From sequence record OR845630.1: a DNA stretch of 1,891 nt, one strand, 5' to 3'. The position numbers and the translations under genes are program-made. This DNA is from Escherichia phage ECO95 1-6-1. Of this stretch, positions 1,530-1,891 are shown piece after piece (the first letter of the stretch is position 1; each line of letters starts with the position of its first letter). The notes under the pieces were generated by a model. The model was given only the letters and a program-made list of their open reading frames with translations. It was not told the origin of the DNA and made no database searches.

Positions 1530-1816
1530 TTAGTAGTCTCTGGCCTCAAGTTTTTTTAGCTCATCCTGAGCCTCGGCCAGCTTACGTTCACGTTTGTCTA
1601 TTTTATCCGCATCACCTTTTGCTTTTGCCTCGGCTAAATCACGTTGGCGTTCGGCTACCTCTTCTTTTTGCTCAGCGATCTTTTTCTGATGCTCGGCGCG
1701 TAGCTTGCTGTCAGTACAATTAGCGCGTACTTCGCTGAGCGCCTTGTTCAGACCCTCAATACGGCGCTGATTGTTGTGCTTTTCAGCGTAGCTAATATAC
1801 TGTTGTATCTGACTCG
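1530..1816 (-). CDS. yqjC: Periplasmic DUF1090 protein YqjC, C-terminal portion only; the true 5' end and signal peptide are missing because the sequence beyond ~1816 is adapter-derived
   Basis: Minus-strand translation ...SQIQQYISYAEKHNNQRRIEGLNKALSEVRANCTDSKLRAEHQKKIAEQKEEVAERQRDLAEAKAKGDADKIDKRERKLAEAQDELKKLEARDY, stop TAA at 1530-1532; charged coiled-coil-like composition typical of YqjC and positioned upstream of yqjD as in E. coli. The ORF-track start at 1823 is a GTG inside the adapter match, and no signal-peptide-like hydrophobic segment is encoded upstream. Confidence 0.75.
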
Positions 1817-1891
1817 TATACACATCTCCGAGCCCACGAGACGATAGGCCGAATGTGGTTATGCGGCCGGTGCATGGGTCGCTGGTTTGGG
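1809..1891. other. Non-biological sequence: Illumina Nextera adapter (reverse complement of the Read 2 transposase adapter) followed by G/T-rich read-through junk
   Basis: 1817-1842 TATACACATCTCCGAGCCCACGAGAC is an exact 26-nt match to the reverse complement of GTCTCGTGGGCTCGGAGATGTGTATAAGAGACAG; 1809-1842 matches CTGTCTCTTATACACATCTCCGAGCCCACGAGAC at 32 of 34 positions. The last 41 nt (1851-1891) are about 46% G and 76% G+T, ending GGTTTGGG. Confidence 0.85.

What the first reader, a model, noticed from the sequence alone, without database searches (positions are those of the whole stretch)
1809..1891. Contig end is library-adapter contamination, not genome
Positions 1817-1842 are an exact 26-nt match to the Nextera Read 2 adapter (mosaic end plus CCGAGCCCACGAGAC), and the 8 nt before it match the mosaic-end start at 6 of 8 positions. 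That pattern is what a permissive overlap between genomic sequence (…CTGACTCGTA…) and an adapter-containing read would produce. The following sequence does not continue into the expected index/P7 sequence and is strongly G/T-biased, which suggests a low-quality read tail. Consequences: the ORF-track start of the 1530..1823 ORF is a GTG inside the adapter, the real yqjC N-terminus is absent, and a pipeline could extend a false CDS to the contig edge. Any apparently novel N-terminal sequence here is an artefact.
Basis: partly seen in the sequence, partly recalled or inferred. Interest (0 to 1): 0.7.

Follow-up and report, generated by a model that had tools for sequence, protein, structure and literature searches.

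The report
Untrimmed sequencing adapter at contig end
The last 83 bases of this short Salmonella contig are leftover Illumina Nextera library adapter (transposase end, index and flow-cell sequence) from a poor-quality read, not genome, so the start of the yqjC gene suggested there is false.

Summary
The window matches Salmonella enterica yqjF-yqjK-yqjE-yqjD-yqjC without gaps from 1 to 1808. All 18 close relatives then continue with the real yqjC 5' end; the window does not.

- 1809-1842 matches the 34-nt Nextera read-through adapter at 32/34, with the exact 26-mer at 1817-1842.
- 1843-1852 (GATAGGCCGA) is a 10-nt i7 index.
- 1853-1891 is a decayed, G-rich reading of the P7 flow-cell sequence.

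CTGACTCG (1809-1816) is not genomic sequence overlapping the adapter; it is the mosaic-end start with two read errors. The tail does continue into index and P7. Six GenBank contigs of one deposit ("Escherichia phage ECO95 1-6-1", SPAdes coverage 2-4x) end with the same adapter, the same index and ATCTCG decaying into poly-G.

The window is very probably the missing record OR845630.1 of that deposit, a Salmonella chromosomal contaminant labelled as phage.

Three further read errors lie at 1797, 1799 and 1802, so the unreliable zone starts at 1797. The GTG start at 1821-1823 and the frame open to the contig edge are artefacts. Real YqjC has 122 aa, and its first 30 residues are absent here.

Biological interest is low.

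The parts
1..238 (-). 5' part of yqjF (DoxX family). Genuine Salmonella sequence; the left contig end is clean.
   Evidence: Colinear with L001-L008, where the DoxX gene lies at 4251-4643. No adapter-like match at the left end.
486..785 (-). yqjK, complete, genuine.
   Evidence: 99-aa ORF. PF13997 in relatives. E. coli annotation yqjK.
782..1180 (-). yqjE (Phage_holin_3_6 family membrane protein), complete, genuine.
   Evidence: 132-aa ORF. The exact protein is listed in 67,954 blocks of the collection.
1183..1488 (-). yqjD (DUF883), complete, genuine.
   Evidence: 101-aa ORF. The exact protein is listed in 68,231 blocks.
1530..1808 (-). Genuine 3' part of yqjC (DUF1090): codons I31-Y122 plus the stop. 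The N-terminal 30 codons are missing.
   Evidence: Ungapped match to 18 relatives ends at 1808. The relatives' YqjC is 122 aa. Pfam DUF1090 covers profile positions 23-110 here, against 3-110 in the real protein.
1797..1802 (+). Cluster of three substitutions (1797 T>A, 1799 C>A, 1802 T>G), interpreted as read errors in the last genomic bases. They create false K33Q and E34Y in YqjC.
   Evidence: The window differs here from all 18 relatives and from E. coli. Across the other 1796 genomic bases, only 4 positions differ from all five colinear references compared.
1809..1827 (+). Tn5 mosaic end of the Nextera adapter, CTGaCTCgTATACACATCT, 17/19.
1828..1842 (+). Nextera Read-2 / i7-side tag CCGAGCCCACGAGAC, 15/15.
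1821..1823 (-). False GTG start codon of the 97-aa ORF, inside the adapter.
1843..1852 (+). 10-nt i7 sample index GATAGGCCGA.
   Evidence: The same 10-mer (two copies with one error each) follows the tag in six contigs of one GenBank deposit, and is followed there by ATCTCG/ATCGCG.
1853..1891 (+). Decayed reading of P7 (ATCTCGTATGCCGTCTTCTGCTTG) running into a G/T-rich no-signal tail.
   Evidence: 13/24 ungapped at the predicted offset, shuffle p=0.004; LCS 21/24, p=0.008. 11/15 and 14/24 identical to the equally degraded tails of L141 and L142. No biological match.

Best explanation
The window is a low-coverage SPAdes contig of Salmonella enterica chromosomal DNA. Its right end was built from one or a few poor-quality Illumina reads of a short tagmentation (Nextera-type) fragment.

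The insert ended at base 1808. The read then ran through the transposase mosaic end (1809-1827), the Read-2 / i7-side tag (1828-1842), the 10-nt i7 index GATAGGCCGA (1843-1852) and the P7 flow-cell sequence. P7 is miscalled, mostly towards G, as signal was lost (1853-1891).

Shown: the colinearity break at 1808/1809, the adapter identity, the shared index and the decaying P7 in sister contigs.

Inferred:
- The instrument used two-colour chemistry, judged from the poly-G decay.
- These adapter copies reached the assembly because at least 2 errors in the first 12 adapter bases let them escape a trimmer that tolerates one mismatch.
- The window is GenBank OR845630.1 (NODE_374_length_1891) of the 'Escherichia phage ECO95 1-6-1' deposit.

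The GTG start at 1821-1823, the frame open to 1889 and the K33Q/E34Y changes in YqjC are all artefacts.
For: **Break in colinearity.** Ungapped alignment to 17 of the 18 Salmonella relatives runs from 1 to exactly 1808, at 98.2-99.1% identity; L132 (97.8%) runs to 1810. All 18 then continue TAATTTCCTTTTGTATATCCTGCTC... into the real yqjC 5' end. The window matches them at only 27/83 positions after 1808.

**Adapter identity.** 32/34 match at 1809-1842, with none in 200 shuffles. The adapter string is documented in the literature.

**Behaviour of the 26-mer in public genomes.** It occurs at least 130 times. Every copy lies 2-16 nt from a sequence end, points outward, is preceded by CTGTCTCT, and is followed by an 8-nt index and then ATCTCG.

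**Sister contigs.** Six contigs of one GenBank deposit (SPAdes coverage 2.2-3.9x) end with an error-laden mosaic end, then CCGAGCCCACGAGAC, GATAGGCCGA, and ATCTCG... decaying into poly-G.

**Error distribution over the 7 adapter ends.** Mosaic-end positions 1-12 carry 21/84 errors, and every end has at least 2. Positions 13-44 carry 6/224 (Fisher p=1.3e-8). In the P7 part, 55 of 81 substitutions are to G.

**Window tail.** It matches P7 at 13/24 at the predicted offset (p=0.004). It has no counterpart in E. coli genomes, plasmids or JGI metagenomes.

**Source record.** Accession number equals 845256 plus the NODE number for 7 records. OR845629.1 is 1893 nt, OR845631.1 is 1889 nt, and OR845630.1 is missing from the collection. 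OR845550.1 of the same deposit is Salmonella DNA about 0.8 kb beyond the window's left end.
Against: - No raw reads or quality values could be inspected.
- The window's own P7 part is too degraded to be convincing alone: gapped-alignment p=0.09, and 3% of genomic 39-mers reach the same LCS.
- Adapter plus index was not found in GTDB genomes, IMG/VR or JGI metagenomes, and no paper listing GATAGGCCGA as an index was found. Its status as an index rests on the six sister contigs and on my recollection, not verified here, that it is Illumina UDP0020.
- The six sister ends were found through similarity to the tag plus index, so their low error rate at positions 13-44 is partly a selection effect.
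- The trimmer-escape idea and the identification of the record as OR845630.1 are inferences.
Confidence: 0.97

Rival explanations
1. One reading: genomic sequence ending ...CTGACTCGTA happened to resemble the adapter start, and the assembler joined it to an adapter-containing read by a permissive overlap.
For: 1809-1816 matches the mosaic-end start at only 6/8. In one relative (L132) the genome reads CT at 1809-1810, so up to 2 nt of the junction are ambiguous.
Against: All 18 relatives read (A/C)TCCTGCTCT at 1809-1818, not CTGACTCGTA. Six sister contigs from unrelated loci also carry at least 2 substitutions in the same first 12 adapter bases. The errors therefore belong to the adapter reads, not to a chance genomic resemblance.
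Confidence: 0.02
2. A real Tn5-derived insertion in yqjC (natural Tn5/IS50, or a laboratory EZ-Tn5-type mutant), with the contig ending inside the transposon.
For: The 19-bp end is Tn5-derived. Base 1812 (A) matches the natural outside end CTGACTCTTATACACAAGT as I recall it; this was not checked against a database.
Against: The 15 nt after the end are an exact match to the synthetic Nextera sequencing tag. They are followed by the same 10-nt index found on six contigs from unrelated loci. The sequence then decays into G/T noise with no biological match. The window is 17/19 to the mosaic end and, by my own count against the recalled sequence, only 16/19 to the outside end.
Confidence: 0.005
3. 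1843-1891 is real DNA from another genome or another locus, joined chimerically behind an adapter remnant.
For: The window's tail resembles P7 only weakly by gapped alignment (p=0.09).
Against: There is no match in 5,426 E. coli genomes. Plasmid hits are at chance level (E of 0.2 or worse). A 24-mer from the tail has no exact match in JGI metagenomes. The first 10 nt are the library's index, and the next bases share the degraded P7 pattern of sister contigs, for example 11/15 with L141. Strong G excess.
Confidence: 0.01
4. The differences at 1797, 1799 and 1802 are real strain polymorphisms (YqjC K33Q/E34Y) rather than read errors.
For: The window differs from its nearest relatives at about 1% of positions, so it is a distinct lineage.
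Against: Three changes, absent from all 18 relatives and from E. coli, fall within 6 nt, directly next to the adapter junction. Only 4 positions in the other 1796 nt differ from all five references compared. E34Y needs two base changes. The adjoining adapter bases show the same error density.
Confidence: 0.03

Closest known systems
Illumina Nextera / tagmentation read-through adapter: CTGTCTCTTATACACATCT + CCGAGCCCACGAGAC + i7 index + ATCTCGTATGCCGTCTTCTGCTTG
   Same: Order and content of the parts. Position at the very end of a contig, pointing outward. It starts exactly where genomic colinearity stops. At least 130 copies in public genome assemblies show the same architecture.
   Different: In those public copies the mosaic end is perfect and the contig stops 2-16 nt after the tag. 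Here the first 12 adapter bases carry 2 errors, the index is 10 nt rather than 8, and 49 nt follow the tag, with P7 degraded towards G.
Adapter-tipped low-coverage contigs of GenBank deposit 'UNVERIFIED_ORG: Escherichia phage ECO95 1-6-1' (OR845563, OR845579, OR845634, OR845771, OR845786, OR845912)
   Same: Same tag and same index GATAGGCCGA, at least 2 errors in the mosaic-end start, P7 decaying towards G, contig length 1.5-2.1 kb, coverage 2-4x.
   Different: Most of those tails decay into long poly-G runs. The window's tail stays mixed G/T and stops after 39 nt. The window itself is not in the searchable collection: OR845630.1 is absent.
YqjC (DUF1090, PF06476) of Salmonella and E. coli
   Same: Residues 31-122 are encoded at 1530-1808, identical to relatives apart from the two error-derived changes.
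   Different: The signal-peptide-like N-terminus and the first mature residues (1-30) are missing. They are replaced by a translation of reverse-complemented adapter, index and P7.

Membership tests
Nextera read-through adapter contamination | 19-nt Tn5 mosaic end CTGTCTCTTATACACATCT | tested here: met
   17/19 at 1809-1827.
Nextera read-through adapter contamination | Synthetic tag CCGAGCCCACGAGAC directly after the mosaic end | tested here: met
   15/15 at 1828-1842. The string is documented as a trimming adapter.
Nextera read-through adapter contamination | Sample index of 8-10 nt directly after the tag | tested here: met
   GATAGGCCGA at 1843-1852. The same 10-mer sits at the same place in six contigs of one deposit, followed there by ATCTCG. 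Its entry in Illumina's index list (UDP0020, from memory) could not be checked.
Nextera read-through adapter contamination | P7 sequence ATCTCGTATGCCGTCTTCTGCTTG after the index | tested here: inconclusive
   13/24 ungapped at the predicted offset (p=0.004) and LCS 21/24 (p=0.008), but gapped p=0.09. It resembles the degraded P7 of sister contigs.
Nextera read-through adapter contamination | At a contig end, pointing outward, starting where homology to the genome stops | tested here: met
   Colinearity ends at 1808 and the adapter starts at 1809, running to the contig end. The same geometry holds in 130/130 public copies.
Nextera read-through adapter contamination | Few, low-quality, soft-clipped reads supporting the end | not testable with these tools
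   No reads available. Indirect support only: sister contigs have SPAdes coverage of 2.2-3.9x.
Genuine Tn5/IS50 or EZ-Tn5 insertion | Transposon interior sequence after the 19-bp end | tested here: not met
   The end is followed by the synthetic sequencing tag, then the index, then G/T noise.
Genuine Tn5/IS50 or EZ-Tn5 insertion | 9-bp target-site duplication flanking both ends | not testable with these tools
   Only one end is present and the contig stops.
YqjC / DUF1090 | Full-length match to PF06476 with an N-terminal signal-like segment | tested here: not met
   The window product matches profile positions 23-110 only. The real 122-aa protein matches 3-110. Residues 1-30 are absent.

The most novel reading that the evidence does not exclude
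The three substitutions at 1797-1802 are real, so this Salmonella lineage carries a YqjC K33Q/E34Y variant next to the adapter junction. More remotely, part of the tail could be real sequence from an unsampled genome. Neither is excluded without the reads, but both are very unlikely.
Probability: 0.02. Interest if true: 0.1.

Novelty: not a real feature. Interest (0 to 1): 0.07.

Why it matters
There is nothing biological here. The value is in data hygiene.

- The record should be trimmed at 1808, or more safely at 1796. Any YqjC N-terminus, GTG start or edge-running CDS called from it is false.
- The contig is Salmonella chromosome, apparently deposited under a phage name. Its yqjE product hits a family named "phage holin" (PF07332), which could help it slip through as viral.
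- In this library every adapter remnant seen carries at least 2 errors in the first 12 adapter bases. Exact or near-exact screens for the mosaic end would miss them. The error-free tag CCGAGCCCACGAGAC plus the index is the better probe.

Tried and rejected
- **Confirming the index in large collections.** Exact scans for adapter plus index gave 0 hits: the 25-mer in GTDB genomes and IMG/VR, and the 23-mer in JGI metagenomes. This says only that the index is rare there.
- **Literature.** GATAGGCCGA occurs in 21 papers; in the one I opened (PMC9835578) it sits inside an unrelated gene sequence, and the other listed titles are not about sequencing indexes. No paper lists it together with other UDP indexes.
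- **Adapter files.** None were found on the compute sandbox.
- **Source contig by protein look-up.** Neither the edge-running 119-aa product nor the 97-aa GTG product is on record.
- **Biological origin of the tail.** No match in E. coli genomes, chance-level hits in plasmids, and no exact 24-mer in metagenomes.
- **Paper on phage ECO95.** The search found only unrelated papers, so the instrument and the trimming tool remain inferred.
- **Rfam and promoter/terminator scans of the window.** No Rfam match at gathering threshold, and promoter- and terminator-like sites no more frequent than in shuffles.
- **Natural Tn5 insertion.** Considered and rejected, because the synthetic tag follows the transposon end.

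Full report
**What the window is.** The 1891-nt window carries, on its minus strand, the 5' part of yqjF, complete yqjK, yqjE and yqjD, and most of yqjC.
- It is about 80% identical to E. coli across this locus in 5,423 of 5,426 complete genomes.
- It is 97.8-99.1% identical to 18 NCBI assemblies recovered through the exact YqjD and YqjE proteins.
- It is 97.1% identical to Salmonella enterica subsp. houtenae AGRM01000002.1.
- It is therefore Salmonella enterica chromosomal DNA.

**Checking the observation.** The exact 26-mer is at 1817-1842, and the 8 nt before it match the mosaic-end start at 6/8.
- The whole 34-nt Nextera read-through adapter therefore matches 1809-1842 at 32/34, with mismatches at 1812 and 1816.
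- It is the only such match in the window, and none appeared in 200 shuffles.
- The adapter string occurs verbatim in 115 papers. In the one I read, it is the cutadapt -a string used on a ChIPmentation library.
- The tail is G/T-rich: 35/49, p=0.002.
- The 97-aa ORF starts at a GTG at 1821-1823, inside the adapter. The frame stays open to 1889.

**Where the genome stops.** Ungapped alignment to 17 of the 18 relatives runs from 1 to exactly 1808, and to 1810 in L132.
- All 18 relatives then continue with a nearly invariant sequence, TAATTTCCTTTTGTATATCCTGCTCTTTTTCCTGAC..., into the true yqjC 5' end.
- After 1808 the window agrees with them at only 27 of 83 positions.
- The genome at 1809-1818 reads (A/C)TCCTGCTCT.
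- Just upstream, 1797, 1799 and 1802 differ from all relatives and from E. coli. Only 4 positions in the other 1796 nt differ from all five colinear references compared.
- I read these three as read errors. They produce false K33Q and E34Y changes in YqjC.

- Every copy lies 2-16 nt from the end of the sequence piece, points outward, and is preceded by a perfect CTGTCTCT.
- Every copy long enough to show it is followed by an 8-nt index and then ATCTCG....
- This shows empirically that the 26-mer is an assembly-end contaminant, and it shows what should come next.

**The sister contigs.** The decisive evidence came from the phage collection. Six GenBank records end with an error-laden mosaic end, then CCGAGCCCACGAGAC, GATAGGCCGA, and ATCTCG or ATCGCG decaying into G-rich sequence and, in four of them, long poly-G runs.
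- The records are titled [quoted passage not shown] (wastewater, Turkey).
- GATAGGCCGA at 1843-1852 is therefore the library's 10-nt i7 index.
- 1853-1891 is the P7 sequence read with heavy signal loss.
- The window's own P7 part matches at 13/24 at the predicted offset (p=0.004) and has an LCS of 21/24 (p=0.008). Gapped alignment gives only p=0.09.
- It shares the degraded form of the sister tails, for example 11/15 with L141 and 14/24 with L142.
- Of 81 substitutions in the seven P7 parts, 55 are to G. From general knowledge, this is what two-colour Illumina chemistry produces when signal is lost.
Its "low-quality read tail" is correct.

**Why the mosaic-end start carries errors.**
- Across the seven ends, adapter positions 1-12 carry 21/84 mismatches, and each end has at least 2.
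- Positions 13-44 carry 6/224 (Fisher p=1.3e-8).
- Part of the low rate at 13-44 is a selection effect, because the sister ends were found through that segment.
- That cannot explain why all seven have at least 2 errors in the first 12 bases, when 130/130 copies in untrimmed public assemblies have none in the first 8.
- My inference is survivorship. The reads were adapter-trimmed with a short mosaic-end seed that tolerates one mismatch, and only copies with at least 2 errors escaped into the assembly. This is not shown.

**Rivals.**
- A real Tn5 or EZ-Tn5 insertion is excluded. The synthetic tag, then the library index, then noise follow the transposon end.
- A chimeric join to real DNA is unsupported. 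There is no match in E. coli genomes, only chance-level plasmid hits, and no exact 24-mer in JGI metagenomes.

**Source of the window.**
- For seven records of the deposit, the accession number equals 845256 plus the SPAdes NODE number.
- OR845629.1 is 1893 nt, and OR845631.1 and OR845632.1 are 1889 nt. OR845630.1 is absent from the collection.
- SPAdes numbers contigs by decreasing length, so NODE_374 must be 1889-1893 nt.
- The window (1891 nt, same index) is therefore very probably OR845630.1.
- The deposit also contains OR845550.1, which is 99.2% identical to the Salmonella sequence about 0.8 kb beyond the window's left end.
- A sister deposit, "Salmonella phage S.Kent 1-2-1", holds Salmonella chromosomal contigs of the same locus.
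- The window therefore looks like low-level Salmonella carry-over in a library deposited under a phage name.

**Consequences for yqjC.**
- The real protein is 122 aa. The window encodes I31-Y122 (92 codons) at 1530-1808.
- Residues 1-30, including the hydrophobic N-terminal segment, are absent.
- Pfam DUF1090 matches profile positions 23-110 in the window product, against 3-110 in the real protein.
- BLASTP aligned the fake N-terminus ITTFGLSS with the real ITLFTLSA by chance, which could make the artefact look plausible.

**Verdict.** This is an ordinary assembly artefact. The corrections are the origin of the 6/8 match, the presence of index and P7, and the extension of the unreliable zone to 1797. 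Interest is low, and this is not a real feature.

Noticed in passing
window 1-1808 (whole genuine part): The contig is Salmonella enterica chromosome (yqjF-yqjC). Its apparent source is a GenBank deposit labelled 'Escherichia phage ECO95 1-6-1', whose stated host is E. coli O157:H7. It matches neither the phage nor the stated host (about 80% identity to E. coli).
   Followed up: partly
L146 (OR845550.1) 1-1048; OR851785.1, OR851008.1, OR851057.1: Another contig of the same deposit is Salmonella DNA from about 0.8 kb beyond the window's left end (99.2% to L003). A sister deposit, 'Salmonella phage S.Kent 1-2-1', contains Salmonella chromosomal contigs of this locus. This suggests host-DNA carry-over or cross-sample contamination between libraries.
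   Followed up: partly
L140-L145, last 60-140 nt of each: All six sister contigs keep adapter, index, decayed P7 and, in four of them, long poly-G runs in public records. Each has at least 2 errors in the first 12 adapter bases, so mosaic-end-based screens would miss them.
   Followed up: yes
L143 (OR845563.1) 2-1996; L140 (OR845771.1): L143 is 98% identical to a prophage-like region present in only 30 of 5,426 E. coli genomes. L140 has no megablast match in any E. coli genome. The low-coverage contigs of the deposit are therefore a mixture of sources.
   Followed up: partly
window 239-485 (yqjF-yqjK intergenic region): Seven of the 18 Salmonella relatives (L002, L006, L007, L130, L131, L136, L137) have a 10-nt gap relative to the window within its first 600 nt. 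Most of the substitutions also fall in this spacer. The yqjF start is called at either 130 or 161 codons in different assemblies.
   Followed up: no
window 782-1180: YqjE hits Pfam Phage_holin_3_6 and is annotated 'phage holin family protein' in E. coli, although it sits in a conserved chromosomal operon. The name could mislead viral-contig classifiers.
   Followed up: no
window 1836-1889, minus-strand frame of yqjC: The translated adapter/index/P7 (…ITTFGLSSRGLGDV…) aligns by chance with the real YqjC N-terminus (ITLFTLSAGSYA) in BLASTP, which gives the false CDS a deceptively homologous look.
   Followed up: yes
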